This document shows positions 16,868 through 53,109 of a DNA stretch of 64,000 nt, piece after piece (positions within the stretch are counted from its first letter, which is position 1; each line of letters starts with the position of its first letter). The DNA is taken from contig NW_026863536.1 of NCBI RefSeq assembly GCF_026571515.1, positions 62,001 to 126,000 on the forward strand. Direction: 5' to 3'. The translations under genes were made by a program, and so were the position numbers. Source of the stretch: Ruditapes philippinarum (taxonomy: Eukaryota). The notes beneath the pieces are model-generated. The model had not been told where the DNA came from, searched no databases, and saw only the letters and a program-made list of their open reading frames with translations.

Positions 16868-19041
16868 TTATCTCCCCTTTTAGAAAAATCTTGTCCAGGA
16901 CATAGCTGTAAAACTATAAGAGATAACAACATGAAACTTTGTAGGTAGATATATCTCAATGGGTAGATGTGCAGTGCACAAGAATCATAACTCTGCCTTG
17001 CCTAATTCTGGAGTTATTGCCCTTTGTTTATTTTTAGCTCACCTGTCACAAATTGACAGGGTGAGCTTTTGTGAGCGCTTTTCGTCCGGCGTCCGTCCGT
17101 CCGTAAACTTTTACTTTAAATGACATCTCCTCATAAACCACTAAGCCAATTTCATCCAAACTTCACAGAAATGTTCCTTTGGTGGTCACCTTTAAAAATT
17201 CTTCAAAGAATTTAATTCCATGCAGAACTCTGGTTGCCATGGCAACCAAAAGAAAAAACTTTAAATATCTTCTTTTAAAAAACCATAATAGCTAGAGCTT
17301 AGATATTTGGCATGAAACATCTTCTAGTGAGTGTCTACCAAGTTTGTTCAAATAAAAGCCCTGGGGTCAAAATTGGCCCCACCCCGGGGGGTCATTGATT
17401 TTCCCTATATGCATATAGTAAAAACTTAAAAAATCTTCTTTTAAAGAACCAAAAGAGTTAGAGCTAAGATATTTAGCATGAAACATGTTCTAATAAGTGT
17501 CTACCAAGCTTGTTCAAATAAAAGCCCTGGGGTCAAAATTGGCCCCGCCCCGGGGGTCATTGATTTTCCCTATATGCATATAGTAAAAACTTAAAAAATC
17601 TTCTTTTAAAGAACTCAAAGAGTTATGGCTAAGATATTTAGCATCAAACATGTTCTAATAGGTGTCTACCAAGTTTGTTCAAATAAAAGCCCTGGGGTCA
17701 AAATTGGCACCGCCCGGGGGTCATTGATTTTCCTAATATGTGTATAGCAAAAACTTAAAAAATCTTCTTTGAAAAAACCCAAATAGCTAGAGTTAAGATA
17801 TTAAGCATGAAACATCTTTTAGTGAGTGTCTACAAAGCTGTTCAAATAAAAGCCCTGGGGTCAAAATTGGCCCTGCCCCAGGGGGTCATTGATTTTCCCT
17901 ATATGCATAAAATTAGTAAAAACTTAAAAAATCTTCTTTTAAAGAACCAAAAGAGTTAGAGCTAAGATATTTAGCATGAAACATGTTCTAATAAGTGTCT
18001 ACCAAGTTTGTTCAAATAAAAGCCCTGGGGTCAAAATTGGCCCCGCCCCGGGGGTCATTGATTTTCCCTATATGCATATAGTAAAAACTTGAAAAATCTT
18101 CTTTTTAAGAACTCAAAGAGCTATGGCTAAGATATTTAGCATCAAACATGTTCTAATAGGTGTCTACAAAGTTTGTTCAAATAAAAACCCTGGGGTCAAA
18201 ATTGGCACTGCCCGGGGGGTCATTGATTTTCCTTATATGTGTATAGCAAAAACTTAAAAAATCTTCTTTGAAAAAACCCAAATAGCTAGAGTTAAGATAT
18301 TAAGCATGAAACATCTTTTAGTGAGTGTCTACAAAGTTTGTTCAAATAAAAGACCTGGGGTCAAAATTGGCCCCGTCCCGGGGGTCATTGATTTTCTTTA
18401 TATGTGTATAGCAAAAACTTAAAATCTTCTTTGAAAAAACCCAAATATCTAGAGTTTAGATATTAGGCATGAAACATCTTCTAGTAAGTGTCTACAAAGT
18501 TTGTTCAAATAAAAGCCCTGGGGTTAAAACTGGCCCGGCCCCAGGGGTGTCATTGTTTTTAACTATATGTGTATAGTAAAAACTTTAAAAAAATCATCTT
18601 TTAAAAAGCCCAATGAGCTAGAGCTTAGATTTTTAGCATGAAACATCTTCTTATGGGTGTCTACCAAGTTTGTGCAAATAAAAGCCCTTGGGTTAAATTG
18701 GCCCTGCAACGTTGGGGGGGGGGGGGTTTGGGGGGTGGTGGTTGGGGGCCTATATACAGGTGAGCGACCTCAGGGCCATCATGGCCCTCTTGTTACATTT
18801 TGAAGTTGTCTGGGACATAACTCGGAAATCATAATAGATATCATCAAGAAACTTTGTAGGTTGATAGATCACATTGATTAGAAGTGCAGTGCAAAGAACA
18901 GTAACTCTGCCTTGCCTAATTTTGGAATTATTGCACTTTGAACTTTTTCCAGGGACATAACTCTGAAACTACAAGAGGTGTACTTTCCTGTGTCCAAAAC
19001 CTATTCGGGGAGCATCACCCGGCTCAAACCGGGCTCTTGTT
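16868..19041 (+). mobile_element. Helentron-like element (~135-bp repeat family), host of a nested element
   Basis: Sub-TIR ctcccc/ggggag and terminal hairpin cccggctcaaaccggg-ctcttgtt. Unit sequence continues across the 17031-18794 insertion. Same family as 28710-29490. Confidence 0.7.
17031..18794 (+). mobile_element. Helentron non-autonomous element (HINE) carrying a ~165-bp satellite-like array
   Basis: 5' TTTTTAGCTCACCTG..GGTGAGC, (GTCC)n microsatellite, ~9 tandem 165-bp units, 3' CAGGTGAGCGA plus hairpin AGGGCCATCATGGCCCT-CTTGTT. Confidence 0.88.
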
Positions 19042-19634
19042 ATTACTGTCTGTGTTATACCCACAATGCCATGTTGCAATTCTTCACCAGAAGACTTCAC
19101 AATCTTTGACTGAAAATAATACACCAGTCAACAGAAGGTGCTCAACTGGTTGTCTTGAAAGTCCTGTCTTCGGCCACAATCTCCACATATCTAATGGTTG
19201 ATAAATCTTAATAAACTTCCTATTTTGGTTGAATTTCCTTTCCAGAAATAACTAAGTTAACACTATCGTTTGTTTTTCAGAGACAAAAAAATTCTCAAAA
19301 ACAATCAAAGATGGTAATTTTGTATAAGTTTCATTAATTTTGTTCACTAACAAAAATTTATGGAATCAAATTTATTATCATTCAAATGGATAGGCAACAT
19401 TATTGATCCAATGTTCTTCTTTGAAAATTAATGCTCATATTTTCTATCTCTAAAAAGACTATACATAACAGAAATAAAAGATCAGCACAATTTAAAATAA
19501 ATTTAAAGAGTGCTGATCCAATTTTTCAACTTAAAGAAAGCTGATCAATTTTTGCTCGACTATTATATTTATATAACAGTCGTTCTATCCTGACTTACCA
19601 AAGAATTGGCGTCACACTTTTGTTTAAATTGTTC

Positions 19635-21163
19635 TGAAGCGATCCTGCGGGCAAATTGGGCGTGTGATATCATAAGTACATTAATTTACCTCAACAAGAT
19701 GCTCAGTTTTTGGGATTCGTCTAGTACCAGATTTAGATACTTATTTATATAACAAATATAACAAAAAGAGGTGTTCATCTAATCTAAATTTTATTTACTA
19801 TGTTCTACATTTATAAAGTTATTTACATCAATGCATGCACAAAAGTTCTTCTTTTTCTAACATCTACAATAACTCGCTACGTCATCATTGAAAATTCACT
19901 TTTTCAGAATAAGAGTCATGAATCATTGTCATTTATATCAACACATCACTTATAATACACGCACTAAACACTTCACTTAACTTCAATTACTAACACTTCA
20001 CTAAAGTTCACTTACTAACACTTCACTTAACTTCAATTACTAACACTTCACTAAAGTTCCCTTACTAACACTTCACTTAAGTTCACTTACTAACACTTCA
20101 CATAAGTTCATTTACTAAAACTTCACTAAAATTCACGTTAAAACACATTACTGAAAATTCACCTTATAGCACATCACTAATGATTCACTTAACTAACACT
20201 GTTTCAAATTTGAATCACTTTTCATTCACTATTTCACAAACTGAAATATTTCACCAACATGGTGATCAAGGAACTTCACAATCATTATACCTATGTAATT
20301 TAATAGACAATTTTCTAAGTAGTTAAATCACCAACATGGTGATTAAGGAACTTAAACTTTTCATGTACCTAAAGATAATTTTCTAAGTAGTTAAATCACC
20401 AACATGGTGATTAAGGAACTTAAACTTTTTATGTTCAGAAAAACTCTAAGTTGTTAAATCACCAACATGGTGTAAATTTCCTAAGTGGTTAATTCACCAA
20501 CATGGTGTAAATTTCCTAAGTGGTTAATTCACCAACATGGTGATCAAGGTACTTTACAACCTCATTCACTTATACACAAACTTTTCTAAGTACCTACATC
20601 ACCTTCATGGTGAAGCAGTAACTTAGCACATCTGGCACAAAGATACTAACACTTTATCATAAACAATTTAAACACTATGTAGATATGAATTCCATCAAGT
20701 TACACAAACTACACAAACTTGCACTTAGAATAATAAGAACTGTAAATCTTGACACATTTCACAAGTTGTTAAATCACCATCATGGTGTTTAAACAACTTT
20801 AATATTTAACTATTCCATACTAAATTACTAAACACTATTTTCTAGTTAAATCCAAAGGTCAGTGGAGTGAGAGAGAGAGAGAGAGAGACTGCACATGTGA
20901 TGCAGCTATTTATGTAAGACCCACTTGGAATTGACCAATGGGCAGTATTCCTAATCTATTAATAACTTGGACAGGTTATCTACTGATTAAGCAATAGATA
21001 ATAGAGAGTTGAAGTACATGGTAGTATATACATGGTTTAAACCTAATTATTACAAGAAAAGTTACTTATATTTTCTGAAATGAAAAGTATTAAGATAATT
21101 ACAATTATATCTTAATTACAAACTTTAATATCAAATTAACAACAAATAACTAGGGTCGTTGCA
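19635..21163 (-). repeat. 3' LTR (1529 bp)
   Basis: Near-identical to 25280-26817: about 6 substitutions and one 9-bp indel seen by eye. Confidence 0.97.
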
Positions 21164-21175
21164 TTGCCCCCCTCC
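21164..21175 (-). promoter_or_regulatory. Polypurine tract
   Basis: GGAGGGGGGCAA immediately before the 3' LTR on the minus strand. Confidence 0.85.
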
Positions 21176-21251
21176 AAATAAGGTTTGGTCCCCAAATGAG
21201 TGTTACAGTATGACAAATATTGTCAGTTTGACTTTGGTCATGATACATTCT

Positions 21252-21553
21252 TTAAACAAAAACATTCACTTGCTCTATTTTAGTAGCAATTGCTTTCATG
21301 AAATCCGGTAATTGATAATACTTTGCTTCATAAAACAGTTCGTACAAAATTCTTGTATCGTTTGGGAGAGTGCGTATATCAAATGAATCTGTCCTAAGGT
21401 AATTCAAAACATATTTAAACGTTGATGGATCTCTGTCCAGAAAATATTGGCCATTTATAGGTTGTGGTTCACTGATAAAACATGCCAGTAGGCTTGTAAA
21501 GATCTTTTTAAGACTTCAAATGGAGTTCCACCTACATTGATTGCTATTCTCAT
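21252..21553 (-). pseudogene. KCTD-type BTB/POZ (T1 tetramerisation) domain ORF inside the retrotransposon, one frameshift
   Basis: MRIAINVGGTPFEV / FTSLLACFISEPQPINGQYFLDRDPSTFKYVLNYLRTDSFDIRTLPNDTRILYELFYEAKYYQLPDFMKAIATKIEQVNVFV*. The NVGG, FxDRD, FxxxLNYLR and EAxYYQL signatures are all present in order. Confidence 0.88.
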
Positions 21554-21574
21554 TAATTTAGTCCTAGCCCGTTC

Positions 21575-23765
21575 TGAAGGCCTTTTCTTGATGCTCATTC
21601 AATGCATTTATTACACCAATCTGTCACATCCTTCCTCATTGAATACCACATAAATCTTTTTTTTTAAATAAAGTTTTCTTTATACCGAAATGTCCACCTA
21701 CAGGGGTATTATGTAACTCATACAAAACTTTACGTACCAATATTCTTGGTAACACTAAACACTATAAGTAACAACTGTTCACTTCCATCTGTAAAGAATC
21801 TAAACAATTCCAAAAATACTTTATTTCACTCGACATTGGCGACACTTCTGACCAATGCGGTTTATGATTCTCAACTTTCCATTTCCTTAACATACATATA
21901 ACATCATCTTTATTTTGTGCCTCAATTATCAATGCTTTACTTAAATCCTCACTCTCTTGATCTTCATTCATGAAAACATTTGACTTCTCGTAAGTGTGGC
22001 CCCTTTCTAAGCCTGTTTCACTCACATCGTTAAGAATATCAAACCATTCCCTTTCTTTTGTCAAAACTTTTGTTATTTCTTCAAAATTCCAACAATCAGC
22101 ATTTCTAACATTTTCACTCAATAATTTCTGGCACCTTTCTGCACCATTGTTATTGTCTTTAGTAAATTTGTTATGTAACTCAGTACCTAAAGTAAGGGAA
22201 TTACTTGTGATAACAGCGGCCGTCTGTTTTATATCACTTTCACTCACAATACCACTTCCTTCTCCTGTAACAAACATCTTTCTCGATAAGTTCTTACAAA
22301 TAAAATTAGGACACTTCCGGTCCCTATTTGTGTTCTTAGAACTTTCTTGACCTACATTTCTTTTGACTTAAACATCCTTGCTTAAACAATATTTTGCATC
22401 GTTAAACATGCCACCAGTACTGACTGTGTTAGTCTGGATGACATTAACATATTTCACCTCAGCTCTATCACAATATGCACAATCTTCCGATATACAGGGT
22501 CTCTTCGATAATGCATCTGCATTTGAATGAACTCGCCCTGCTCTATACTTAATTTTAAAATCATATATGGACAAAAATTCAAGCCACCTGGCTATTTGTC
22601 CTTCTGGGCTCTTAAAGTATACACCTTAAAGCACCATGATCACTTCTCACTAGGAAGTGATTACCAAATAGATAATGGTGAAAGTACTTCACCACACTTA
22701 CAACAGCTAAAAACTCCCTTCTTGTTACACAATACCTCCGTTCAGGCTTAGAAAAACATTTACTGTAATAAGCAACCACTTTCTCTTCTCAATTTTGAAT
22801 TTCTTACATGACAGATCCTGTAGCATCCTGACTTGCATCACAATCAATTATAAATGTTTCATTTGACCTTGGATATGCTAATAATGGAGCGTTTGTTAAC
22901 TTTTCCTTCAATTTTGTAAAAGAATTTTCACATTCATTTCCATACTTTAGCAATATACACGCATCCTTAATTATATCATTAATCACATGTTAAATTTTGT
23001 GAACAATTTTCATATAAAACGTTTAAATGCTCTGGAATAGCTTGGTGGTCATTTAATTTGACTGTATTACACTTTTACAGTCATTTTCTTGTGGGACATT
23101 CACTTCTTCAACATAACCTTTGACCGTATTTTTATCAACTTTGCATGCTTTATTATTCAAATTTATCACTCTAATTGGCAAGACATTTGTTGCACAATTA
23201 ACTAAACTTTTTCCCACCAAAAGACCACTCTTTTCAGTTTAAGTTACATTTGGTTCAATGACACAATCACTGTTTCCTAAATTCACAGAAGATTTTCCAG
23301 GAATAACCATTTCTGTTGCTGGTGGTATAATAACATTTTCGGTAACCAGCACTCTATAACATTGTTTATCAGTTTCTCCTTCACTTATAGAGCATTTTAT
23401 AATATTGTTACCAATTTTCAATTCTCTTTTGTGTAAATGAATTTCACAATTATATAATTCAAGGAAGTCAATTCCTAAAATACCATCATTTTAAATGTCT
23501 GCCAGTAAAATATCATGATTAAACATCTGTTTTCCAGTGAGATTTCTGCAGTAATTTTATCATAAAAAGGTACAATATCTCCTGTTGCAGTAAGCATATT
23601 TAAATTCATTTTTTTCTAATGGTAAATTTAAATTCAATTTATCAAAAACACTTTTATTCAATATGCTTACATAAGAACCTGTATCAATTAAAAACGAGAC
23701 TGGCCTCCCATGAACATTGATCATAACAAAAAGTCCATGATCATTGGTACTTATGTTGTAGATTA
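21575..23765 (-). pseudogene. pol: Degenerate pol (protease, RNase H, integrase zinc finger; RT and integrase core deleted)
   Basis: Protease VSFLIDTGSYVSI (~23670-23700). RNase H LTNAPLLAYP..IDCDAS..YRAGRVHSNADALSKRPC. Integrase HNTPVGGHFG..C..C (~21600-21720). Stops and frameshifts throughout; no YxDD seen. Confidence 0.9.
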
Positions 23766-25097
23766 ATTTTTCTGGAGTGGACCTTGGGATACCTGCTGAG
23801 TTTCGGTCCTTAAACCCGAGCTCTGAGCGTTTCCCGAATTGACTACCTCATTTTCACCTTTCTTAGCTGGGGGTCTTGACACTGTGTGATTTCGAGTGTT
23901 ATTTCTAGCATAGTTATTTGATCCTCTTGTGCTCTGCCAATGAGGATTTTGATAAGTGTTACGATATCTTAATCCTCTGTTAAGATTCATAGATTGATAA
24001 CCTTGAACTTCCTTTGCCAATTTCTCCATCTGATATGATAGTTCATTCAATTTCCGGTCAGTTTTGTTTTCTTCTGGAAAAACACTTCTCACTGAATATT
24101 TTCCCCTATTTCTGTCAGCAATTTTGTGTGCATCCAAGCGAACAGCTATTTTCTCTGCTTCACTTATTGATTTAGGACCGACTTCTCTTAGTCTTAGCCT
24201 TATGTCGGTATCTGGCAGTGCATCTATAAAATGTTCCATTGCTAAAAGTTCCAACACATCTGTTGCCGCACTAGGATATGCCTGTCGCGTTAACTTACGG
24301 ACTGACTGTGCCAATTCTGGCAATGTCTCATGCTTCTGTAAAGTACGAGTCTGTAACTTGGATCTATAAATTTCAGCGCGATGTACTGAACCATATCTGT
24401 TTTGTAATGCATGCACTATAGCTTCAAAGCTTTTCCTTTTCTGAGAATCTAATTCACATAAAATTGCCCTAGCATTCCCATTAAGACTGCTTGCTAAGTA
24501 TAACGATTTAGTTTCATAATCCCAATTATTTAATTCTGCCACTATATTGAACTGAGTAAGATATTCATCTAAATCATCCGAACCGTTATATATTTGAGGC
24601 TTAATTTTCATCCCTGAAGAATAGCCTCCTGAAGCACCATTTCTCTTTTCAACATGATTTGTCAACCTTGTTAAATTAACACTATCTTCAATGGAAGAAA
24701 CATATCTGTCATTTTGCACATAATCCTGCTTATCGTGACTTTTTCTCGAATTCATGTTATCAACTTGTGTTTGAAAACTTTTCAATTTTTCATCAAATTC
24801 TTCAAGGGATTGTTGAACACTAGTTTTTATTTGATGCATATTCATTTTAAACTCTTTGGTCATTTCAAACATAATTTTCTCAAATTTTTGTTCAAATTTA
24901 TTTTCTGCAGGCTCCTGTTCTAGATTTTCTTCACTTAATTCACTCACAGTTTCGTCATTTTGAGTGCCAATATCAGTTTCCCAGTTTTCCTCATTTGTAT
25001 TATGAATATCAGCCTCTATGCTTAACTCCAGCATTTTACTTTCACCCTCTTTTTGCATTTTATGACTAAATGTCACTTCAGAATCAATATCTGACAT
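23763..25097 (-). CDS. gag: Gypsy Gag, 444 aa, intact
   Basis: Long ORF after the PBS with a capsid-like motif KPQIYNGSDDLDEYLTQF..NNWD..LASSLNGNA. Slippery site G GGA AAC at 23829-23835, just before the protease. Confidence 0.92.
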   Translation of the reverse strand: MSDIDSEVTFSHKMQKEGESKMLELSIEADIHNTNEENWETDIGTQNDETVSELSEENLEQEPAENKFEQKFEKIMFEMTKEFKMNMHQIKTSVQQSLEEFDEKLKSFQTQVDNMNSRKSHDKQDYVQNDRYVSSIEDSVNLTRLTNHVEKRNGASGGYSSGMKIKPQIYNGSDDLDEYLTQFNIVAELNNWDYETKSLYLASSLNGNARAILCELDSQKRKSFEAIVHALQNRYGSVHRAEIYRSKLQTRTLQKHETLPELAQSVRKLTRQAYPSAATDVLELLAMEHFIDALPDTDIRLRLREVGPKSISEAEKIAVRLDAHKIADRNRGKYSVRSVFPEENKTDRKLNELSYQMEKLAKEVQGYQSMNLNRGLRYRNTYQNPHWQSTRGSNNYARNNTRNHTVSRPPAKKGENEVVNSGNAQSSGLRTETQQVSQGPLQKN

Positions 25098-25260
25098 TTT
25101 GACTTAGTATCACTGGTACTAGATTTAAATTCAAATTAAAGTTATTAAATCACAACTACATTAAACTCAATATAATTCACATAGCACTTTTTCCATCAAA
25201 CACAATCCAAATGAATAAAGAACATAAACATACGCGATATCACACCGTTGAATTTAAATT

Positions 25261-25278
25261 ATCCCACCGCTGCCACCA
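25261..25278 (-). promoter_or_regulatory. Primer-binding site complementary to tRNA-Leu
   Basis: TGGTGGCAGCGGTGGGAT, 1 nt after the 5' LTR, complements the 3' end ATCCCACCGCTGCCA-CCA of metazoan tRNA-Leu(AAG/TAG). Confidence 0.88.
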
Positions 25279-25279
25279 T

Positions 25280-26817
25280 TGAAGCGATCCTGCGGGCAAA
25301 TTGGGCGTGTGATATCATAAGTAGATTAATTTACCTCAACAAGATGCTCAGTTTTTGGGACTCGTCTAGTACCAGATTTAGATACTTATTTATATAACAA
25401 ATATAACAAATATAACAAAAAGAGGTGTTCATCTAATCTAAATTTTATTTACTATGTTCTACATTTATAAAGTTATTTACATCAATGCATGCACAAAAGT
25501 TCTTCTTTTTCTAACATCTACAATAACTCGCTAAGTCATCATTGAAAATTCACTTTTTCAGAATAAGAGTCATGAATCATTGTCATTAATATCAACACAT
25601 CACTTATAATACACTCACTAAACACTTCACTTAACTTCAATTACTAACACTTCACTAAAGTTCACTTACTAACACTTCACTTAACTTCAATTACTAACAC
25701 TTCACTAAAGTTCCCTTACTAACACTTCACTTAAGTTCACTTACTAACACTTCACATAAGTTCATTTACTAAAACTTCACTAAAATTCACGTTAAAACAC
25801 ATTACTGAAAATTCACCTTATAGCACATCACTAATGATTCACTTAACTAACACTGTTTCAAATTTGAATCACTTTTCATTCACTATTTCACAAACTGAAA
25901 TATTTCACCAACATGGTGATCAAGGAACTTCACAATCATTATACCTATGTAATTTAATAGACAATTTTCTAAGTAGTTAAATCACCAACATGGTGATTAA
26001 GGAACTTAAACTTTTCATGTACCTAAAGATAATTTTCTAAGTAGTTAAATCACCAACATGGTGATTAAGGAACTTAAACTTTTTATGTTCAGAAAAACTC
26101 TAAGTTGTTAAATCACCAACATGGTGTAAATTTCCTAAGTGGTTAATTCACCAACATGGTGTAAATTTCCTAAGTGGTTAATTCACCAACATGGTGATCA
26201 AGGTACTTTACAACCTCATTCACTTATACACAAACTTTTCTAAGTACCTACATCACCTTCATGGTGAAGCAGTAACTTAGCACATCTGGCACAAAGATAC
26301 TAACACTTTATCATAAACAATTTAAACACTATGTAGATATGAATTCCATCAAGTTACACAAACTACACAAACTTGCACTTAGAATAATAAGAACTGTAAA
26401 TCTTGACACATTTCACAAGTTGTTAAATCACCATCATGGTGTTTAAACAACTTTAATATTTAACTATTCCATACTAAATTACTAAACACTATTTTCTAGT
26501 TAAATCCAAAGGTCAGTGGAGTGAGAGAGAGAGAGAGAGAGACTGCACATGTGATGCAGCTATTTATGTAAGACCCACTTGGAATTGACCAATGGGCAGT
26601 ATTCCTAATCTATTAATAACTTGGACAGGTTATCTACTGATTAAGCAATAGATAATAGAGAGTTGAAGTACATGGTAGTATATACATGGTTTAAACCTAA
26701 TTATTACAAGGAAAGTTACTTATATTTTCTGAAATGAAAAGTATTAAGATAATTACAATTATATCTTAATTACAAACTTTAATATCAAATTAACAACAAA
26801 TAACTAGGGTCGTTGCA
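25280..26817 (-). repeat. 5' LTR (1538 bp)
   Basis: Partner of 19635-21163. Confidence 0.97.
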
Positions 26818-27004
26818 GTTCATACTACCCCACTAATTTCCTATACCCTGGGGTATAATCATTTGCTCTGCAACTTTTTAACCTTGCAAGACCATCATCC
26901 CCACTTCCAGACAAGAGGACATAACCTGTCATGGATTTTCAATTATTTTTGATAATTATGCCCTTTTCACTTTTCTAATTACCAGTAAATTTTATACTGT
27001 TGAT

Positions 27005-28690
27005 TTTTTTCTACTTCAAATAGAGTTGATCCAATTTTTCTACTTCAAATACTACTAATCCATTTTTCTACATCAAATATGCTAATCTTTTTTTTCTCTA
27101 CTTATATTGCTGATTCTTTTCTGTCTACATGTACTTCAAATACTGCTGATCCATTTTTTTTCTACCTGAAATACTGCTCATCCATTTTTTCTACTTCAAA
27201 TATGATGATCCATTTTTTTTCCACCTCAAATACTGCTGATCCATTTTTTTACTTAAAATATGATGATCAATTTTTTAAGTCTTCAAATTCTGCTGATCCA
27301 TTTTTTTCCACTTCTAAAATTGCTGATCTATTTTTTCTACTTCAAATTGAAATATGCTGATCTATTTTTCTCAACATCAAATACTGCTGATCCATTTTTT
27401 TTCTACTTCATAAATCTGATCACTTTTCTACAACAAAAATGCTGATCCTTTTTCTTCTACATCAAACATGCTGATTGAGTCTTTTCTTCTTAAAATACTG
27501 CTAATTTTCTTATATACTTCAAATACTGCTAATTCTTTTTTTCTACTTCAAATATGCTGTCTGTTCTCTTTTTTTTTACTTCAAATATGGCTGACCCATT
27601 TTCAACTTCAAACAAGATGATCTATTTTGCTACATCAAATACTGCTGATCCATTTTTCCTTCTTCAAATTCTGGTGATCCATTTTTTTACTTCAATTACA
27701 GCTGATCAATTTTTTCTACTTCAAATATGCTGATCCTTTTTTCTACTTAAAATTCTGCTGATCCATTTTTTTCTACTTCTAAACTGCTGATCCATTTTCT
27801 GAATCAAAAACTGCTGATCCATTTTTCTACTTCAAATATGCTGATCCATTTTTCCACACCAAATACTGCTGATCTGTTTTTGTACTTCAAGTATGCTGAT
27901 CTCTTTTTCTACTTCAAATACTGCTGATCCATTTTTTTTCAATATGCTGATCCAGTTTTCTACATCATTGATCAAATACTGCTGATCCATTTTGTTTTAC
28001 TTCAATATGCTGATCCATTCTTCTACATTAAATACTGCAGATCAATTTTTTCTACTTCAATATGCTGATTCATTTTTCTACATCATTGATCAAATACTGC
28101 TGATCCATTTTTCTACTTCATGTACTTCAATACGCAGGTCCATTCTTCTACATCAAATACTGCTGATCCATTTTTTCTACTTCAATATGCTGATCCATTT
28201 TTCTACATCAAATACTGCTGATCCATTTTTTCTACTTCAATATGCTGATCCATTTTTCTACACCAAATACTGCTGATCCGTTTTTCCACTTCAAGTATGC
28301 TTTTTCTGCTTTGAATACTGCTGATCTCTTTTTATCTTCTTCAAATACTGTAGATTGTAGATCCATTTTTTCTACTTCAATATGCTGATCCATTTTTCTA
28401 CATCAAATACTGCTGATCCATTTTTCTACTTCATATATGCAGATCCATTTTTCTACACCAAAAATACTGCTGATCCGTTTTTCCACTTCAAGTATGTTTT
28501 TTTTCTGCTTTGAATACTGCTGATCTCTTTTTATCTTCTTCAAATACTGTAGATTGTTGATCCATTTTCTACTTCAAATATGTCAATTGGTTTTTCCACA
28601 TCAAATACAGATGATCATTTTTTTCTCCTTCAAATACTGCTGATCTTTTTTTTTTCTACTTCAATATTGCTGATCCATTTTTTCTTACTT
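27005..28690. repeat. Tandem minisatellite, ~30 bp unit TTCTACTTCAAATACTGCTGATCCATTTTT
   Basis: Dozens of units. Related units also occur at 19510-19555, left of the LTR insertion. Confidence 0.95.
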
Positions 28691-28709
28691 CAAGTATAAT
28701 TGCTGGTCC

Positions 28710-37621: not shown

Positions 37622-39109
37622 TTAGCGTTTCTCAACCTTCATTTTGAAACTACTCGGATTTAGAGTTGTCGCCAGTTTTCCTTTTTGGTCCGGGACAACG
37701 CCTTCCTTTTCCGGTAAAAATCTCAACTTTTGAACAAGTCCTGTCAAAAACAGAAATATTTCAATTGTTGCTAACGTCTCCCCTAAACATGACCTCGGTC
37801 CTAATGAAAATGGGATGAACTCTTTTGGAACTATGACGTCATTTCCTTCCGCGTTCAGAAATCTTTCCGGTATAAATTCTTCAGGGTCCTTCCAAACATC
37901 CGGATCCTTTAAAGCGGTGCTGAGAACTGGCAAAACTGTGCAATTCTCTGGAATAAGGTATCCCCGGAATAAGGTATCTTGTTCAACAGTGTGCGGCATT
38001 GATAGCGGTACCACGTGAGAAATTCGGAGTCCTTCCAACATTACCGCTTGCATGTACGGCATTCGTTTCCTATCTTCAATTGACGGAGGCTCCTTTCCAA
38101 GCACAGCTTCTACCTCCGCGTTCAATTTATCCTGTATGTGAGGATTCCTTATTAGGTGTAGGAGTATCCATCTAATTGTGACAGCGGTGGTTTCAAACCC
38201 TGCCACACCGAGATGATATGCCGCTATCTTTAAATCTTCTTCATCGAAAGTACTTTCTATTCCTCTACTTTCGTTAGCAGCAATTCTATCTAAGTAGCAT
38301 TCAACATAAGTTGTTCTTTGCGTGTTTCTACTCTGTTTCTTCAAATCTTCGATAAACTTTGTCAAAAATTCCTTAGCTGTTGCGAATGAATCCCTAGTTT
38401 TTTGAATTCTTAAAAGATCTCCCGGTAGATTTTGTAAGAATGGGAGACAATTTAGAATTACCTCCCTTTTCAAAAATTCTTCTGAACTGGTGCGGACAAA
38501 TTTCTGAAACCAATGCAGGCCTTCATCATTTAGATCAAAACGATGTCCGTACACGACTTGAAATATCACATTTTGAACGCTTGAGTTCAAGTAGCGTTCT
38601 ATATCAAATGGCTCATCAAATTTAAGAATTGTTTCTGTCAAGTCATTCACCTCGTAATCTACTAAATGTTCTACAAAACCTTTATCATTATAACAGATTT
38701 CTTGTAATACTGCTAATGTAAAACTTCTACCTTCCTTCCATTTTGTCCCTTTCGTAAATATTAACCCTTTTGTATGTATATCTTCTTCTTGGTCGAAACT
38801 TGGCAGAGCTCTGAACATAAATTTGGATCCTTTCTTTATCAGCGCGTCATGAATTACATCATAACCATTTAGAAACACGAGAAGTTTACTTCCGGTGTAT
38901 AGTCCAAAAACGTCACCATACTTTTTTCGTAGTTCATTTAATCTGCCCAACGTATCTTCCGTAGCCAACGATGGGAGATTTCCGATAATAGGAAACAAGG
39001 CAGGTCCAGGCGGCACCCTTTTTTGTCGTCTTGTGTTAGAATAAGCTAACAAAAATGTTATTAAGAAAATCAGTATTGTTGTAATGGTGCTGTAATCCGT
39101 TTCATCCAT
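37622..39109 (-). CDS. Cytochrome P450, CYP2 clan, intronless (495 aa from ATG)
   Basis: N-terminal TM anchor, PPGP hinge, WxxxR, I-helix AGFETT, ExxR (EGLR), PERF and heme FSLGPRSCLGE. First ATG is at 39109 (the track starts at a TTG). Confidence 0.97.
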   Translation of the reverse strand: MDETDYSTITTILIFLITFLLAYSNTRRQKRVPPGPALFPIIGNLPSLATEDTLGRLNELRKKYGDVFGLYTGSKLLVFLNGYDVIHDALIKKGSKFMFRALPSFDQEEDIHTKGLIFTKGTKWKEGRSFTLAVLQEICYNDKGFVEHLVDYEVNDLTETILKFDEPFDIERYLNSSVQNVIFQVVYGHRFDLNDEGLHWFQKFVRTSSEEFLKREVILNCLPFLQNLPGDLLRIQKTRDSFATAKEFLTKFIEDLKKQSRNTQRTTYVECYLDRIAANESRGIESTFDEEDLKIAAYHLGVAGFETTAVTIRWILLHLIRNPHIQDKLNAEVEAVLGKEPPSIEDRKRMPYMQAVMLEGLRISHVVPLSMPHTVEQDTLFRGYLIPENCTVLPVLSTALKDPDVWKDPEEFIPERFLNAEGNDVIVPKEFIPFSLGPRSCLGETLATIEIFLFLTGLVQKLRFLPEKEGVVPDQKGKLATTLNPSSFKMKVEKR

Positions 39110-39735
39110 TTTTGTCAAATTTCAATTTTTTCACCCCTATTTCTCTATCTCACTAACTTCAAGAATAACTTAAATAATTTTTATAAAGCACATGTGTACA
39201 GTTCTTGAATAGAAACTGCAATGCCTTCAATTATTCACAAGTCTTGAAAAATCCGCTTTAACTGATGTAAAAATCACAAGGTGTTTTCAATACACAAACA
39301 TTTCACGCTCTATATATCATAAATATCAACTACGGAATTCCGTTAGGGTCATTATTTTTTATCGTATGTAGAATAGCGTGTAGTCGCGGGTCAGCTCTAC
39401 AAGAAATTTGGATCGTAATGAAAACTAACGCTACAAAATATACTATGATAATCCTGTTATTATATACATACAAAATTATGATGCATGTATAGAAATCACT
39501 GTTTGATTAAAGTACACAATATTGTACACAACTGACTAACATGATTCATTTGAATTAAAATATATATAAATAAATAAATACAAAAAATACATTCAGATCT
39601 GTAATTATGTAAAAGATTAATACAGAAAATGGAATTATATTTTATAATGTGTATATATTATGAATAATGGCGGTAAAGGCGGAAAGAGTTAAGATTTTTT
39701 TTACCCGTGCAAAAGTAAATTAAGTTCAGATAAAA

Positions 39736-42700
39736 CAATGGTAGGATACTACGTCATCGCGCACCTGCTGAATGCTCCCACTTGGACCATTTTTTCGCCG
39801 ACTCAAAGGTAAAATACAATTTTATTATCAGAAAACGTAAGAGTATTAAAAAATCATGTAGCGCACCAAAGAATGGCTATAGTACTTGAGATAATTGTAA
39901 AAAAAGTTTATAGATTTATTGCCTGGTTTAGGCCTGAAAACGGGATAAGTGTTTTTCTCTGAATGCTCCCACTCGGACTTCTCCGAAACATATATGAAAT
40001 AAGGTTGAAAACCTTCTTTAAAATTATTTTTAACGTACCGGAACATAAACCGAGTCATGTATACCCATTATTCTATATTAGTTTCAAATGATTTTATTCA
40101 AAAGTCAGTTTTTCTTAATTCTTTTTATAAAAATGGAAAATGCTCCCACTCGGACTCAACTTCAGAGATGCTCCCACTCGGACCTAAATATATACAAATT
40201 TTGAAAGCACAAAGCTGTCTTAAGATATTATTATTTTTTTCAAAATATCTTTATATTCACGTTCATATATTCATATAATCAGTAAGAATTCAATGAAACA
40301 GCATTTTTAAAATACGATACTAATATTTAAATTACTAAACAGTCTCGTAAATATGTCTTCTTAGAGGATTAGTATAAGGGAAAAAAGTTGTGTTGAAAAA
40401 ATTCCTCGTTTAAAAGAGTCGCTTAAATAAGAAACAAATTGTTTATACATTTTAAAAATATAATAACGTTTTGTTTTGCAGAAAGTATTTGTATTCGTGA
40501 CCAGTATGGGAAAAGGTATAAACCACATTGGGACGTAAGGAAGCACATGGCAGGACATCTTGGCACGGCAAAGCTGGAGCAAGTATTTTTGATATCAACT
40601 GTGGATATATCTCATTGAGGAGGAATGCTCTAGAAAACACAAGAATAATAGCTCTTTGAAGTAATTGTCTTTTGTTCAGTTTTTTTTGCGTTAATTTTTG
40701 GACAATGTGTCATAAAGGATCAATTCATCTGAAATTTCACTGGATGATAGATTTCAATAAAGTAAAATACCGCAAACAAGAATTACAACTCTCCAGTTTT
40801 GGAGTTATTGCTCTTTGTATTCACTATCATTAGTTTGCAAGGACCATACCTCTAAAGGTATTTGAGATATAAACTTAAAACTTTATATTGAACATGTTTA
40901 ATAGAAGTGAATAGCAGAGCATAAGGACCAGAAGGGTTCACTTAATGCTTCTTTGTTGTTTTTCTTTGTTTTTTTTTCATGGGAGTGTTATTTTTGTCAT
41001 GATTTATTATGTCTAGGCTATAACTTTTCATTAATTTTCACGAGTATCATTACTTGGAATTTCTACACGTATGTAAGGGTTACTTCCCCTTTGAAATGTA
41101 CTTCCTCCTTATGGCGGGGGATTTTGCTGTCTGTGATTCCTTCTTGTATTATTGTTATTATTTTAACGTTATTCATATATCCTGAACTCATTTTTCTATG
41201 ATTTTATTCATTAATATAATGCTCAAATGAAGATTTATCAATAAAGTATGTTCCGAAAAGCATTATTTGTAAAGATAATACCGAATTTACATTTCATAAA
41301 GGGAGGTAATTAGAAATATATTTTCTATTAAGTATAAGTTGAATTCTTCAAAAAGAAACGAATGCATTATGCATACATGTATATTTTAATGATTACATAT
41401 AATGTGGACAAGCATTTGCAGTACGTATTTTACATATTCCTTTATGTTTGAAAATTGTTTTAGTACCATAAATATTAATGCATTTAATTTATAGACAATT
41501 TCAATTGGTAACAGCCTGAAATATAACTTACATGATCTTTAATTACCAAAATATGGTAAAGACTGTGATAAAGAAATAACTATGATCTTTGTTTTCCTAT
41601 TTTTTTTTATTATTTAGGTAAAAATACGTACACGTGATAACTTTCATACTTAAAGTTGTCAAAGTTGTTAATAATTGTGACGCCGTAGTATGGCAGTACC
41701 TTGACTTTTTAACCAGTTCATGACAAAAATGATTTACATGTTGTTCTTTAATAAACTTTTCAAATCAACCGATAGATATTGACTTCTTTATGTTCATTTA
41801 CGTACAATTATGCTATTTTAAAACCTAAGTCACAAGTTTAACAAACACGCAAACCATTGGGTTTTAAATTATTAACAAGATATTAAAGTCAGCAATTATT
41901 GAATAAATGCTGGCCTCTAATATGTGCACGAGTCCAACAGAATCTTAATCCGGTATGGTACTCAACAATGTATAATGACTTCTTTGTAAAACACCACACT
42001 TTTTTAACATCTAAACAAAACTTTATTCTTGAGATCCAAACTGCCCATTTAAAGTCGTATAATCCTAGCTTGTTGTTGGCAATGATTTTGAATTATCCCT
42101 TCGGATGCAACACAAGCCAAGTGCACCTTTTTGTATAGTGATCCTGTCAGTTGAAACTTTGCCATGGCACCTTGTTCCTGTCCAACGACGTCATTCTACA
42201 GAATCAAAGAAGTGATCTCTGTAAAAAGAATGAAAAGTTAATGTTGCCAAACACAGTAGTTATTGACAAAATGGTGTTTAAATTGTGAGAATAATCCATA
42301 AAAGCTAACACAGCAATGTGCTTTCAAAATGTATATATTTGGGTCCGAGTGGGAGCATCTCTGAAATCGAGTCCGAGTGGGAGCATTTTCCATTTTCATA
42401 AAAAAAACTTCAAAAGACTGACTTTTGAATAGAAATATTGGAAACTAATATAGAATAATGGGTATACATGACTTGGTTTATGTTCCGATACGTTAAACAT
42501 AATTTTAAAGAAGGTTTTCAACCTTATTTCATATATGTTTCGGGAGAAATCCGAGTGGGAGCATTCAGAGAAAAACACTTATCCCGTTTTCAGGCCTAAA
42601 CCAGGCAATAAATCTATAAACTTTTTTTACAATTATCTCAAGTACTATAGCCATTCTTTGGTGCGCTACATGATTTTTTAATTCTCTTACGTTTTCTTAT

Positions 42701-42791
42701 AATAAAATTGTATTTTACCTTCGAGTCGACGAAAAAATGGTCCAAGTGGGAGCATTTAGCAGGTGCGCGATGACGTAGTATCCTACCATTG
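39736..42791. mobile_element. Non-autonomous DNA transposon with ~480-bp TIRs and apparent 5-bp TSD
   Basis: TAAAA|CAATGGTAGGATACTACGTCATCGCGCACCTGC ... GCAGGTGCGCGATGACGTAGTATCCTACCATTG|TAAAA. Each TIR has 4 copies of ATGCTCCCACTYGGAC. Confidence 0.92.
40640..41147 (+). mobile_element. Decayed Helentron-like element nested in the long-TIR element
   Basis: Recurring gagttattgctcttt-type units. 3' end ggcgggggatt..ttcttgt. Confidence 0.5.
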
Positions 42792-42919
42792 TAAAAGAAG
42801 TATTGAGAACAATAGCTGCATATGAGACCCTGTAAGTATTGTTATAAACTGATATAACTGTTTGTGTGTGTATTATAAATGATATGATCTCAGATAAGTT
42901 TATTTGAAGTGTACGATAA

Positions 42920-43075: not shown

Positions 43076-43680
43076 AACAGTCTTCTGATGTCACTTAAAA
43101 CGTATGTTTATGTCGGAAAACGAATCTCACCCTTCCTCATTTCGTCTTACCGCACTTGTGAGTATCCGTCGAAATATTGATGGACCTGATGGAACACCGT
43201 AATTACAAGTTTAAAGATAGTATAGCCTCTCTACTTGGTTGTATTATACTTGTTCAACCGAGCGTAACTTTTCTTTATCATAATACTATGGCAGACCATT
43301 ATCGTCAAAGCTACGCTTTTAAAACCGAACAAACAGGACTTAGCTTTTCTACGATTTTAAGCATTCTTGTCTTGTAAAATGTTACTATCCTGAAAAAAAA
43401 TGTTTTGCTTGCGTAGCAGATTATAATTCTAACTAGCGCTCCAAAGCAAACTACGAACAATAAAACAATAAAGTTTTAAATAACATATATATAACAAGTA
43501 TCCATGGCTTGACAAGTATATTCCACAACATCACGAAATTTCTCATGTTTCTTATCTGTTTGTGTATTAATTACATTCTAGGAATTGAAAGAAATAAACA
43601 CTTGAAACTATATAGATGTATTATCAATAAGATAAAAGTACATGTACAAGAAACATTATACTATTTACATAACAAATACA

Positions 43681-44602
43681 TACGGAAGCATGGAGAGGAC
43701 ATAGTCGATTTATTTTAATAATCTGTGGGAACAACTTATTTGTCGAAGTATTTTTTATTAATCTGTGGGAACAACATGTTTTGTGAGAAAAATCTTTTTT
43801 TATTCTGTGGGAACAACATATTTTGTGAGAAAAATCTTTTTTTATTCTGTGGGAACAACTTAATTTGAGAAAAAAAAAAAATTATTCTGTGGGAACAACA
43901 TATTTTGTGAGAAAAATCTTTTTTTATTCTGTAGGAACAACATATTTTGTGAGAAAAATCTTTTTTTATTCTGTGGGAACAACATATTTTGTGAGAAAAA
44001 TCTTTTTTTATTCTGTGGGAACAACTTATTTTGTGAGAAAAATCTTTTTTTTACTCTGTGGGAACAAACTATTTTCTGCGATATTTTTTCAATATCTTGT
44101 TCCCTCAAGATAATAAGTTGTGCGAACAAATTAATTATGTTGTTCCCACAACATAATTCAACCAATCAAAATAGCGATTGCCACAAAGAGTGACTGCAAA
44201 GTTAAGTCCCTTTTTAAAAAGTCGCCATTTGCACACAATTGCAATAATGGCAGAAGAAATGTTTAGAAAATTATTAGAATTCCTACGTTCTAGAGGATTA
44301 AACAACTCACAGCTTTAGAGCTTAATTCTCACAAAATAAGTTGTTCCCACAGATTAAAAAAAGATTTTTCTCACAAAATATGTTGTTCCCACAGAATAAA
44401 AAAAGATTTTTCTCACAAAATATGTTGCTCCCACAGAATAAAAAAAGATTTTTCTCACAAAATATGTTGTTCCCACAGAATAAAAAAAGATTTTTCTCAC
44501 AAAACATGTTGTTCCCACAGATTAATAAAAAATACTTCGACAAATAAGTTGTTCCCACAGATTTTTAAAATAAATCGACTATGTCCTCTCCATGCTTCCG
44601 TA
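43681..44602. mobile_element. IS3EU-type non-autonomous foldback element with 6-bp TSD
   Basis: AATACA|TACGGAAGCATGGAGAGGACATAGTCG ... CGACTATGTCCTCTCCATGCTTCCGTA|AATACA. Arms are built of 42-bp tandem units. Confidence 0.88.
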
Positions 44603-45663
44603 AATACAGGTTACTATAGAAAAAAATAAAACTTGACACAGTTTCTTAACCTTTGTAAATATATATGACTTAATATCTATGAAGTGTATGTAGGTAGGTG
44701 CGTGTTTTGCGAGCGTGCGTGCGTTTACGAGCAAGCAAGCGAATGAGTTACCTGTGTTGACGAAAATAAAATATATACATTTTGTAACAACACATAATTA
44801 CATAAATTTATTTTCTCGAGAATTTGTAATTTCACAAACTGAGAAGCGTAACTTGAAACAAGTTTTGGGACTTATTCAAAAATAACGAAAACTTTTCACA
44901 ACAATAAGAATTATAACGTCTTGTCAATGAATAAAAAAAATCCAGTATAAGTTCTGATTGTTTAAAAACTTTTTACTGGGGTTGCCTGACATTACGGGAC
45001 AAAAAAAATGTTGTTTTTTTTTGTGTGTGTGGTTTTTTTTCTCGAGATTTGTAAGCCATACTATGTAGTCTAGACCAATAACTTGTGTGCATATTTTTAG
45101 ATCATTCCCTTGTCCACTTTTTCGAGAAATAATCATTTTAATTGAACAAACCCAAAAATGAAAAACGTTGAAACGCCTTTTACTGAGATAGGGCTAAAAT
45201 CGCACAAAACTCGGACAATCTATTTTATTCTGAGTATATTTCTTCATTTTTCCTTTGCAGATTATTCAATTTGAAGTACTTTACTTAAACTATGAAAATA
45301 TTTCATTGTTTAAAGGCTTTTTGACTTTTGTTTAAAAATGAATATTTGAAAACTAAATTGTTGACAATCATGATCGCAAGCAATTTGAAAATAAAATGTT
45401 ATATAAAATAATATAAATTCAGGTCTGAAATACGTTATAGTTAGAACTTGCTTAGTAAAATCTAATTGATTACTGGCTTGGCTTATTGATTAAATTGAAG
45501 GGGAGGCGGAGCAAGTGCATCAATACAGATATTTAACCGTTTGTGAATTAGTCAAACATTTGCACCAAAATCTAAAATTTTTACCTCACACACGGTGAAT
45601 TGGTGAAATTAAGAGAATGTTCATCTGTCCCTGCACAGCTGTGGGCGAGGTTACATATTATTA

Positions 45664-52366: not shown

Positions 52367-53109
52367 TTCTGTAAGTATTCCTAAATAGAATATTATAATA
52401 TTTTACAACAAATTTTACTGTTTTGCATATGTCTAACAGCTGTGAATGAAATCAGTGTACACACGCTACACGCTCTATAAAACAGATCAACAGGGCTTTT
52501 TTCCTATATGATATATAATTTTAAAGGTAGTAATTCATGCTTAATATGTCAGAGTGTTTATATTGCAAACATAGTCTGATGACAATATCTCGGCGAGGCG
52601 TTTATAGGGCTTTCTTATAACTTGACTTGACTTGGGCTTAATTATGTCTTATTCATGATTTTAAGAGACTTTTTGTTCATATTTTCTTTTATATACAATT
52701 TCAAGCATATAAATATACAATCGATAGTTGGTGCTTAGTATATAGCTTAGTCTCCAATGTTCTATTTATAATTTTACTGAAAGCCAATAATTTACTCGGC
52801 TATACAGTATTAAGTTACGTACAAATGCACTAGCTGTTTATAACTGTATTGTTGAACAAATAGAATTATATCAAAATAAATTATGAAGATACTATCTACT
52901 TAAGGTTTTTTCCCCTTTTTTATGATCTCGATAAATTTTAAGAAAATGAAGCACGTTTTGAGAGAAAATATAAAAAATTGTTACACATGAGAGTAATAAA
53001 AACAGAAATGGTGAAAATTGCCCGGTTCTATGATAAAATGTGCAACATCTTTGATGCCCCCTAGCACCGTATAATGACATACTTTAAAGGAGCTCCACTG
53101 AAGTCTACA

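What the first reader, a model, noticed from the sequence alone, without database searches (positions are those of the whole stretch)
21252..21553. Gypsy retrotransposon carries a KCTD-type BTB/POZ domain gene in the env position
Seen: between the truncated integrase and the PPT, on the element's sense strand, an intronless ~100-codon ORF with its own ATG encodes a stand-alone BTB domain (INVGG...SLLA...YFLDRDPSTFKYVLNYLR...LP.D...LYEL..EAKYYQL). One small frameshifting deletion hides it from the ORF track. Established: KCTD BTB domains oligomerise, many recruit Cullin-3 E3 ligases, and some viruses carry BTB proteins to divert Cul3. Inference: this lineage captured a host BTB gene as an accessory ORF, and a BTB-only protein could act as a dominant-negative or anti-silencing factor. 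I do not know of this as a described Gypsy feature, but cannot search.
Basis: partly seen in the sequence, partly recalled or inferred. Interest (0 to 1): 0.88.

Follow-up and report, generated by a model that had tools for sequence, protein, structure and literature searches.

The report
Zinc-finger–BTB accessory gene in mollusc retrotransposons
This stretch is the broken tail of an extra gene carried by a whole group of mollusc jumping genes; in intact copies the gene encodes a zinc-finger-plus-BTB protein kept by selection, is likely made from a spliced message, and likely helps the element control its own expression.

Summary
The BTB is real (Pfam BTB_2, E 4e-10) and sits between integrase relic and PPT of a recently inserted Gypsy element (19635-26817, minus strand). 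It is not a stand-alone gene. It is the C-terminal end of a longer ORF3: two zinc fingers, a low-complexity linker, then a KCTD-type BTB.

The window copy belongs to a non-autonomous subfamily (6 copies share the junction). A 1.6-kb deletion removed the fingers and created the 'own ATG'; there the BTB decays neutrally.

Ten families in this genome carry integrase-ZnF-BTB in that order; BTB omega is 0.04-0.3 in the four measured. Related proteins are named from mussels, scallop, pearl oyster, zebra mussel and a gastropod, three with Pfam pol domains in the same gene model.

ORF3 has a phase-0 splice acceptor (28 of 28 loci). A phase-0 ATG mini-exon donor lies in the LTR (8 of 8 clean LTRs). Splicing is inferred, not shown in RNA.

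Most likely role: an oligomeric regulator binding the element's own LTR. Cul3 hijacking is less likely. Ten literature searches found no description; Repbase was not searchable.

The parts
19635..26817 (-). Non-autonomous Ty3/Gypsy element (family A deletion subfamily), TG...CA ends
25280..26817 (-). 5' LTR (about 1.54 kb); 6 substitutions against the 3' LTR, so a recent insertion
19635..21163 (-). 3' LTR
19631..19634 (.). 4-bp target-site duplication GTTC (second copy 26818-26821)
25261..25278 (-). Primer-binding site (tRNA-Leu type; the tRNA label is recalled, not from a call)
   Evidence: sequence; same PBS in families B, C, D
21164..21176 (-). Polypurine tract
23763..25097 (-). gag, open frame of about 444 aa (weak SCAN/capsid-like Pfam hit)
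21555..23847 (-). Broken pol: protease, about 0.9-kb RT deletion near 22940-22960, RNase H piece, integrase H2C2 relic; stops and frameshifts
21551..21555 (-). Junction of the about 1.6-kb deletion (integrase core, acceptor, zinc fingers and linker of ORF3 lost); creates the ATG at 21551-21553
21252..21553 (-). Relic BTB_2 domain, the 3' end of ORF3; 13-nt frameshifting deletion at about 21515
26461..26475 (-). Site of the LTR ATG mini-exon and splice donor; here it holds a stop codon and no GT donor (same at 20807-20821)
26561..26568 (-). TATA-like box of the LTR promoter (picked by eye), followed by a (TC)n tract
25906..26441 (.). Eight CACCA/T-N3-TGGTG near-palindromes downstream of the donor site (eight more at 20252-20787); candidate ORF3 binding sites

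Best explanation
The window holds the dead BTB tail of a third gene that a lineage of mollusc Gypsy retrotransposons carries between integrase and the 3' LTR; intact copies encode two zinc fingers, a low-complexity linker and a KCTD-type BTB under purifying selection, the gene is likely expressed by splicing from an ATG mini-exon in the LTR, and its product likely oligomerises through the BTB and binds the element's own LTR to keep it expressed. SHOWN: architecture, position, presence in ten families, selection, no membrane segment, and neutral decay in the deleted subfamily. INFERRED from sequence signals: a subgenomic spliced mRNA (LTR ATG + 1-8 codons + GT donor joined in phase 0 to a pyrimidine-YAG acceptor 3-18 nt before the first Cys). 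INFERRED by analogy: nuclear location, BTB oligomers giving avidity to only two fingers, binding to clustered palindromes just downstream of the donor, and a transactivator or anti-silencer role. Action in trans is inferred because ORF3-less derivatives have been copied.
For: Architecture; Cys/His ligands nearly invariant in 34 sequences. Position after integrase in families A, B, C, D, E, E2, G, H, I, K. 28 of the 30 best integrase-C-terminus loci have a ZnF hit downstream, 2 of them weak. Selection: BTB omega 0.3, 0.04, 0.1, 0.04 in families C, E, G, H (2dlnL against omega=1: 4.5, 21.7, 24.5, 23.7); ZnF omega 0.02-0.2; integrase 0.1 in family E. Acceptor: 28 of 28 evaluable loci against a 4% null; 18 of 28 have no in-frame Met. 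Donor: 8 of 8 families with a clean LTR against an 8.7% null. The fingers resemble tandem DNA-binding C2H2 fingers. KCTD BTB fold: pLDDT 89.7, Foldseek E 5e-9 to KCTD15. Basic NLS-like runs in 6 of 9 ORF3s. LTR palindrome clusters in A, C, G, I and weakly D. Other molluscs.
Against: No splice junction was seen in RNA: the joints table was swamped by a flanking repeat (15 shown, 192 hidden). Reads over the element were low and unstranded in one raw RNA run and essentially absent in the other. Family E and some other copies have an in-frame Met 13-23 codons upstream (10 of 28 loci). TATA positions and palindrome patterns were chosen after looking. B, E and E2 show no palindrome cluster, and A's cluster may be plain tandem duplication. 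The ZnF model has no Foldseek hit at E<=0.001, and finger 2 is C2HC, not canonical. No binding, localisation or oligomer state was measured. An activating rather than repressing or RNA-level role is not distinguished.
Confidence: 0.45

Rival explanations
1. Rev/CERV-like RNA regulator. ORF3, made from the spliced RNA, oligomerises on the unspliced genomic RNA (the palindromes read as small hairpins inside the intron) and licenses its export or blocks its splicing.
For: The inferred intron spans all of gag-pol, so genomic RNA retains an intron. The palindromes lie just 3' of the donor. Precedent: Cer1 CERV is spliced, Cys-rich, predicted ring-forming and needed for gRNA export (PMC10309623, abstract and section 9).
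Against: The fingers best resemble DNA-binding C2H2 proteins. Palindromes are missing in 3 of 8 LTRs. RS dipeptides are few (0-7 per ORF3). Homology to CERV was not tested.
Confidence: 0.25
2. Viral-type Cul3 E3 adaptor. The BTB recruits Cullin-3 and the zinc fingers bring a host silencing factor for degradation.
For: KCTD-type fold. Many KCTDs bind Cul3 through the BTB (PMC10856315, passages). The host genome has Cul3.
Against: The alpha2-beta3 loop carries most Cul3 contacts (PMC10856315). In the elements it is hypervariable and lacks the KCTD7/10/13 MF[SG]G motif in 25 of 25 printed rows, while host C9834 and C8071 keep it. The nearest solved structures are KCTD15, 1 and 16; the paper's passages name KCTD1, 15 and 16 as unable to bind Cul3. 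Caveat: KCTD5-type binders use another loop (recalled), so this is not decisive.
Confidence: 0.15
3. Negative autoregulator. The same protein binds the LTR but represses it or sequesters host factors (KCTD1/15-like), limiting copy number.
For: Nearest solved BTBs are KCTD1/15. Families are low-copy: 29 matches to the family-A LTR start, a lower bound. ORF3-less derivatives spread in families A and D.
Against: Similarity to KCTD15 is only about 34% and is not orthology. Trans-mobilised deletion derivatives are common under any model.
Confidence: 0.1
4. Stand-alone BTB-only accessory ORF with its own ATG acting as a dominant negative, or a passive one-off capture.
For: Six family-A copies share a junction that keeps the whole BTB, and 3 have an ATG there.
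Against: In those copies the BTB carries stops or frameshifts and omega is 0.56-1.15 in 5 of 6 (0.16 in a 65-codon piece). The ATG is absent in 3 of 6. The junction lies next to a short sequence likeness between integrase and BTB that can explain the breakpoint. Full-length ORF3 is under strong selection.
Confidence: 0.03

Closest known systems
Drosophila gypsy / errantivirus env (ORF3)
   Same: Third ORF between pol and 3' LTR, translated from a spliced transcript (PMC8096092, passages).
   Different: No signal peptide or membrane helix (highest 19-residue hydropathy 0.37-1.15 in 8 element ORF3s). ZnF and BTB instead of a fusion glycoprotein. The initiator exon is predicted inside the LTR.
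CERV of C. elegans Cer1 (PMC10309623)
   Same: Spliced accessory protein of a Gypsy element, nuclear, Cys-rich, structured domains joined by flexible linkers, predicted ring oligomer.
   Different: CERV shares exons with gag and has H/M/G domains, no BTB. It is described as having no obvious homologs outside nematodes. Its function is shown; ours is not.
VANC of Arabidopsis VANDAL elements (PMC6719617, passages)
   Same: TE-encoded accessory protein acting in trans on its own family through motifs repeated within the element.
   Different: DNA transposon, unrelated protein, function shown. Here motif binding is only a hypothesis.
Host KCTD proteins (KCTD1/15/16, KCTD7/10/13)
   Same: BTB_2/T1 fold.
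   Different: The BTB is C-terminal, follows zinc fingers, has no KCTD C-terminal domain, lacks the KCTD7/10/13 Cul3 loop motif, and is element-borne.
BTB-zinc-finger transcription factors (ZBTB; GAGA factor, recalled)
   Same: Few C2H2 fingers plus a BTB multimerisation module; weak finger matches to ZBTB7A, Zif268 and Kaiso.
   Different: Domain order reversed. The BTB is KCTD/T1-type (PF02214), below the PF00651 cut-off.
Gypsy elements with captured host domains: orchid AlkB ORF (PMC9289625), planarian Burro (PMC6431247)
   Same: A host-derived domain kept as an extra ORF in a Gypsy lineage; Burro carries ubiquitination-related domains.
   Different: Different domains and hosts. 'BTB' occurs 0 times in the main text of either paper.

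Membership tests
Ty3/Gypsy LTR retrotransposon | LTRs with TG...CA ends, 4-6 bp TSD, PBS, PPT | tested here: met
Ty3/Gypsy LTR retrotransposon | gag, then PR-RT-RH-INT order | tested here: met
   Window relics; motifs in sister copies; Pfam RT, RH, INT order on a family-G pol
Named mollusc Gypsy clades (C-clade, MolGy; PMC6238403) | RT/RNaseH placement with reference elements | not testable with these tools
   No reference sequences on hand; the paper's supplements were not opened
Errantivirus-type env ORF3 | Third ORF between pol and 3' LTR | tested here: met
Errantivirus-type env ORF3 | Expressed from a spliced subgenomic RNA | tested here: inconclusive
   Donor and acceptor signals strong; no junction seen in RNA
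Errantivirus-type env ORF3 | Signal peptide and transmembrane fusion glycoprotein | tested here: not met
   hydropathy; Pfam
KCTD family | T1/BTB_2-type BTB fold | tested here: met
KCTD family | BTB in the N-terminal region, followed by a C-terminal domain | tested here: not met
   BTB is the last domain in all ORF3s
KCTD family | Homo-oligomer (pentamer or tetramer) | not tested
   Inferred from fold only
Cul3-binding KCTDs (KCTD7/10/13 type) | Conserved alpha2-beta3 loop motif (MF[SG]G) | tested here: not met
   0 of 25 printed ZnF-BTB rows; present in host C9834 and C8071
ZBTB/GAGA-type transcription factors | N-terminal PF00651-type BTB with C-terminal C2H2 fingers | tested here: not met
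   Order reversed; PF00651 under cut-off
CERV/Rev-like export factors | Required for export of unspliced gRNA | not testable with these tools
   Needs bench work

The most novel reading that the evidence does not exclude
A broad, old group of mollusc Gypsy elements behaves like complex retroviruses. A micro-exon in the LTR is spliced over gag-pol onto a modular regulatory gene (zinc fingers, disordered linker, swappable C-terminal module). One branch captured a host KCTD BTB once; sister branches carry an unnamed domain or a coiled coil. The BTB oligomer reads family-specific LTR palindromes as a self-targeting switch.
Probability: 0.35. Interest if true: 0.88.

Novelty: new variant of a known kind. 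Interest (0 to 1): 0.76.

Why it matters
Fixed gains of host domains in LTR retrotransposons are described as rare (PMC9289625), and few accessory proteins have known functions. This is a selected, multi-family ZnF-BTB accessory gene reaching several bivalve orders and probably a gastropod, with a precise and cheap test (one predicted splice junction per family).

If it is a self-regulator or anti-silencer, it would be an animal retrotransposon counterpart of VANC, Rev or CERV, built from a captured host oligomerisation domain.

It also bears on annotation. NCBI lists these ORFs as host genes ('zinc finger CCHC domain-containing protein 10-like', 'trichohyalin-like', 'BTB domain-containing protein'). 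At least 20 of the 115 BTB_2 matches in this genome lie on contigs shown here to be element copies, so mollusc KCTD/BTB counts may be inflated.

Tried and rejected
Structure and binding
- Complex prediction, 4 BTB copies plus Cul3 residues 10-150: no verdict; not used as evidence either way.
- Foldseek of the ZnF model: nothing at E<=0.001.
- ESM Atlas: only generic BTB leads under 0.9; no hit for the sister-clade C-terminal domain.

RNA
- The run search listed no holder on record as RNA.
- Laying 4 of 24 listed runs on L088 gave a joints table dominated by a flanking repeat. One contig starts 8 nt before the predicted acceptor with a depth step from 10 to 16, too weak to count.

Relatives elsewhere
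- The word-index protein search with full ORF3 found only one close relative among 6 hits.
- Metagenome and viral contig scans with P0039, P0122 and P0032 found no confirmed locus, so LTR context outside this genome rests on gene models.
- The phage collection gave one Mollyvirus BTB hit, not informative.

Trees
- The BTB tree of 66 rows is poorly resolved. After dropping 13 long-branch or near-duplicate rows, one clade of element BTBs is not rejected (p-AU 0.78), which does not prove it. The host donor was not identified; KCTD5- and KCTD3-like host genes were not knowingly in the tree.
- In the integrase tree, BTB carriers fall in two groups within an unresolved node, so monophyly is not shown.

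Ideas rejected
- BTB fused to integrase as a chromodomain-like tail: a stop and an intergenic gap separate them in intact copies.
- BTB-only dominant negative.
- Env function.

Earlier scan findings held nothing on this system.

Full report
1. THE ELEMENT. The window holds a Gypsy element on the minus strand at 19635-26817. Its LTRs (25280-26817 and 19635-21163) are 99.0% identical with 6 substitutions. It has a GTTC target duplication, a PBS at 25261-25278 and a PPT at 21164-21176. gag is open. pol is broken and shortened. The frame 21255-21515 hits BTB_2 at E 4.4e-10.

2. THE BTB IS THE TAIL OF A LONGER ORF3. A search of the own genome gave 45 matches. In the closest copy (C11491, 93% identical) the BTB ends a 324-codon frame that starts with zinc fingers. 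Against it the window lacks about 0.9 kb of RT, about 1.6 kb from integrase core to just before the BTB, and 13 nt inside the BTB. The ATG sits at the 1.6-kb junction. Six copies share that junction (window, C15481, C11157, C1011, C3976, C6734), and 3 have the ATG. Their BTBs show omega 0.56, 0.16 (65 codons), 0.90, 1.15, 0.95 and 1.15 against C11491; five of the six carry stops or frameshifts in the aligned BTB. This is a non-autonomous subfamily copied in trans, with the BTB as passenger.

3. A LINEAGE TRAIT. Integrase, then a stop, then ZnF-linker-BTB occurs in ten families: A, B, C, D, E, E2, G, H, I, K. LTR pairs were seen for seven of them. Copies in three families have open gag, pol and ORF3 frames. 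Of the 30 best matches to the family-A integrase C-terminus, 28 have a ZnF hit downstream; 2 of these are weak and belong to a sister clade. ORF3 runs from 314 to 766 aa; the length difference is in the Ser/Lys/Glu-rich linker. The N-terminal module is C2H2 plus C2HC, with ligands nearly invariant in 34 sequences. It models confidently (pLDDT 91) and resembles tandem DNA-binding fingers by sequence, but has no significant Foldseek match. The BTB models as a KCTD T1 fold (pLDDT 89.7; Foldseek E 5e-9, 34% to KCTD15).

4. SELECTION. Codon models within families give BTB omega of about 0.3 (C, 4 copies), 0.04 (E, 4), 0.1 (G, 4) and 0.04 (H, 3), with 2dlnL against omega=1 of 4.5, 21.7, 24.5 and 23.7. 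ZnF values are 0.02-0.2 and integrase in family E is 0.1 (grid estimates). Between families synonymous sites are near saturation while non-synonymous differences stay at 15-44% for the BTB. Family A could not be fitted this way: only one copy with a full-length open BTB frame was in hand.

5. OTHER MOLLUSCS. A ZnF profile search of 1.84 billion representatives gave 483 hits. I picked 53 of the best 150, mostly single-stretch hits; 16 of 53 carry a C-terminal BTB_2, one of them matching a copy from this genome. I looked up 20 proteins. Named records are from Dreissena polymorpha, Mytilus californianus, M. coruscus, M. edulis, Pecten maximus, Pinctada imbricata and the gastropod Gigantopelta aegis; the rest are unnamed. 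A near-identical family-A protein is named from Ruditapes philippinarum (P0008). Gene models from M. edulis (P0080), M. coruscus (P0165) and P. imbricata (P0190) join Pfam pol domains to the BTB-bearing ORF. A Dreissena model has an integrase-like peptide before the fingers. For Pecten and Gigantopelta the element context was not seen.

6. EXPRESSION BY SPLICING (inferred). At 28 of 28 loci where the first CxxC could be placed (3 of 31 could not), a YAG with at least 9 of 15 upstream pyrimidines lies in phase 0, 3-18 nt before the Cys codon. 18 of 28 have no in-frame Met, and 10 do. The null rate is 4%. In the LTRs of A, B, C, D, E, E2, G and I, the first AG|GT(A/T) after a TATA-like box is 57-131 nt from it and is preceded by an open in-frame ATG with 1-8 further codons: 8 of 8, against 18 of 207 background sites. 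H fits less cleanly and the K LTR is interrupted. TATA boxes were picked by eye and families are related, so the nulls overstate significance. In family A the mini-exon is intact in 5 of the 19 LTR copies aligned. In the window's two LTRs and several others it holds a stop or lacks the donor. RNA data did not settle it: one raw RNA run has low unstranded depth across the element, the other almost none, and no internal joint is among the 15 shown of 207.

7. MECHANISM. ORF3 has no membrane segment, so it is not env. Basic runs occur in 6 of 9 ORF3s. ORF3-less derivatives have been copied in families A and D, so it is not needed in cis. Short palindromes cluster just downstream of the donor in A (8; 0 of 100 shuffles), C (0 of 100 for the best arm), I (0 of 300), G (2 of 300) and D (4 of 300), but not in B, E or E2. 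The patterns were chosen after looking. Two fingers with a multimerising BTB and clustered inverted sites fit an avidity-based regulator of the element's own LTR, as in GAGA factor (recalled) or VANC (PMC6719617, passages); I give this 0.45. A CERV-like RNA role gets 0.25, since the same sites lie in the intron (PMC10309623, abstract and section 9). Cul3 recruitment gets 0.15. The loop that makes most Cul3 contacts (PMC10856315, passages) is hypervariable here and lacks the KCTD7/10/13 motif in 25 of 25 printed rows, while two host BTBs keep it.

8. ORIGIN. The BTB tree is poorly resolved, and a single clade of element BTBs is not rejected. Sister Gypsy families in this genome have an ORF3 with other tandem fingers and an unnamed C-terminal domain. 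More distant ones have fingers plus a coiled-coil-like end, and one has TatD. This suggests a finger-linker ORF3 that predates the BTB and swaps its last module. BTB carriers are not shown to be monophyletic on the integrase tree.

9. NOVELTY. Ten full-text searches listed no paper on a BTB or ZnF-BTB ORF in Gypsy elements. I saw keyword passages of PMC7084138, PMC6238403, PMC10856315, PMC9289625, PMC6431247, PMC8096092, PMC6719617, PMC13524379 and PMC12440569, and the abstract and one section of PMC10309623. 'BTB' occurs 0 times in the four of these where it would most likely be mentioned. The mollusc LTR survey PMC6238403 has no 'ORF', 'zinc' or 'envelope' hit. No supplements were opened; those of PMC6238403 may hold these elements. 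Repbase, Dfam, GyDB and subscription journals were not searchable. Verdict: a new variant of a known kind (spliced accessory ORF3), interest 0.76. The window copy itself is a dead relic.

Noticed in passing
L179-L183, L189 (G000 C13047, C8011, C8724, C14083, C4211, C13927): Sister Gypsy clade whose ORF3 has tandem C2H2 fingers, a linker and a conserved ~160-aa C-terminal domain (G-x-MP..PP.RR.W, WPP..W, FLALPG) with no Pfam or ESM Atlas hit.
   Followed up: partly
L195 (G000 C8989), downstream of integrase: Gypsy element whose third ORF ends in a TatD DNase domain, split over two frames (E 4e-10 and 3e-13).
   Followed up: partly
L192, L193, L196, L191, L188: More distant Gypsy families with a downstream ORF of fingers plus low-complexity linker and a coiled-coil-like end (L188 is short; L191 shows no fingers in the frame seen).
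   Followed up: partly
L046:1914-3392, L100, L124 (C15515, C4431, C14901): ZnF-BTB ORFs related to family E with no integrase nearby. C15515 has an open 494-codon frame and shares flanks with C4431 (likely alleles). Relic or domesticated copy.
   Followed up: partly
L048, L049, L115 (C4197, C11093, C12570): Three dispersed BTB-only ORFs with their own Met, nested near families B-D in the BTB tree, with no pol nearby; carrier unknown.
   Followed up: partly
L185, L187 (C8832, C12940): Family D copies sharing a deletion of the integrase C-terminus and nearly all of ORF3 while the rest of pol stays open.
   Followed up: partly
LTRs of families B, C, D, E, E2, G, I, K: A TGACGTCA element (CRE; label recalled) lies upstream of the TATA-like box in these families but was not seen in the family A LTR.
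   Followed up: no
window 37625-39121, 46137-47669, 50867-52402 (-): Three intronless cytochrome P450 genes in tandem.
   Followed up: no
window 17251-18716, 27000-28700, 39735-42792, 43670-44613: About 165-bp tandem array, about 28-bp satellite, a 2.5-kb element with long terminal inverted repeats, and a foldback-like 42-bp array.
   Followed up: no
G000:C12023:33523-33879: Another Gypsy integrase (982-aa open frame) on the window's contig, upstream of the window.
   Followed up: no
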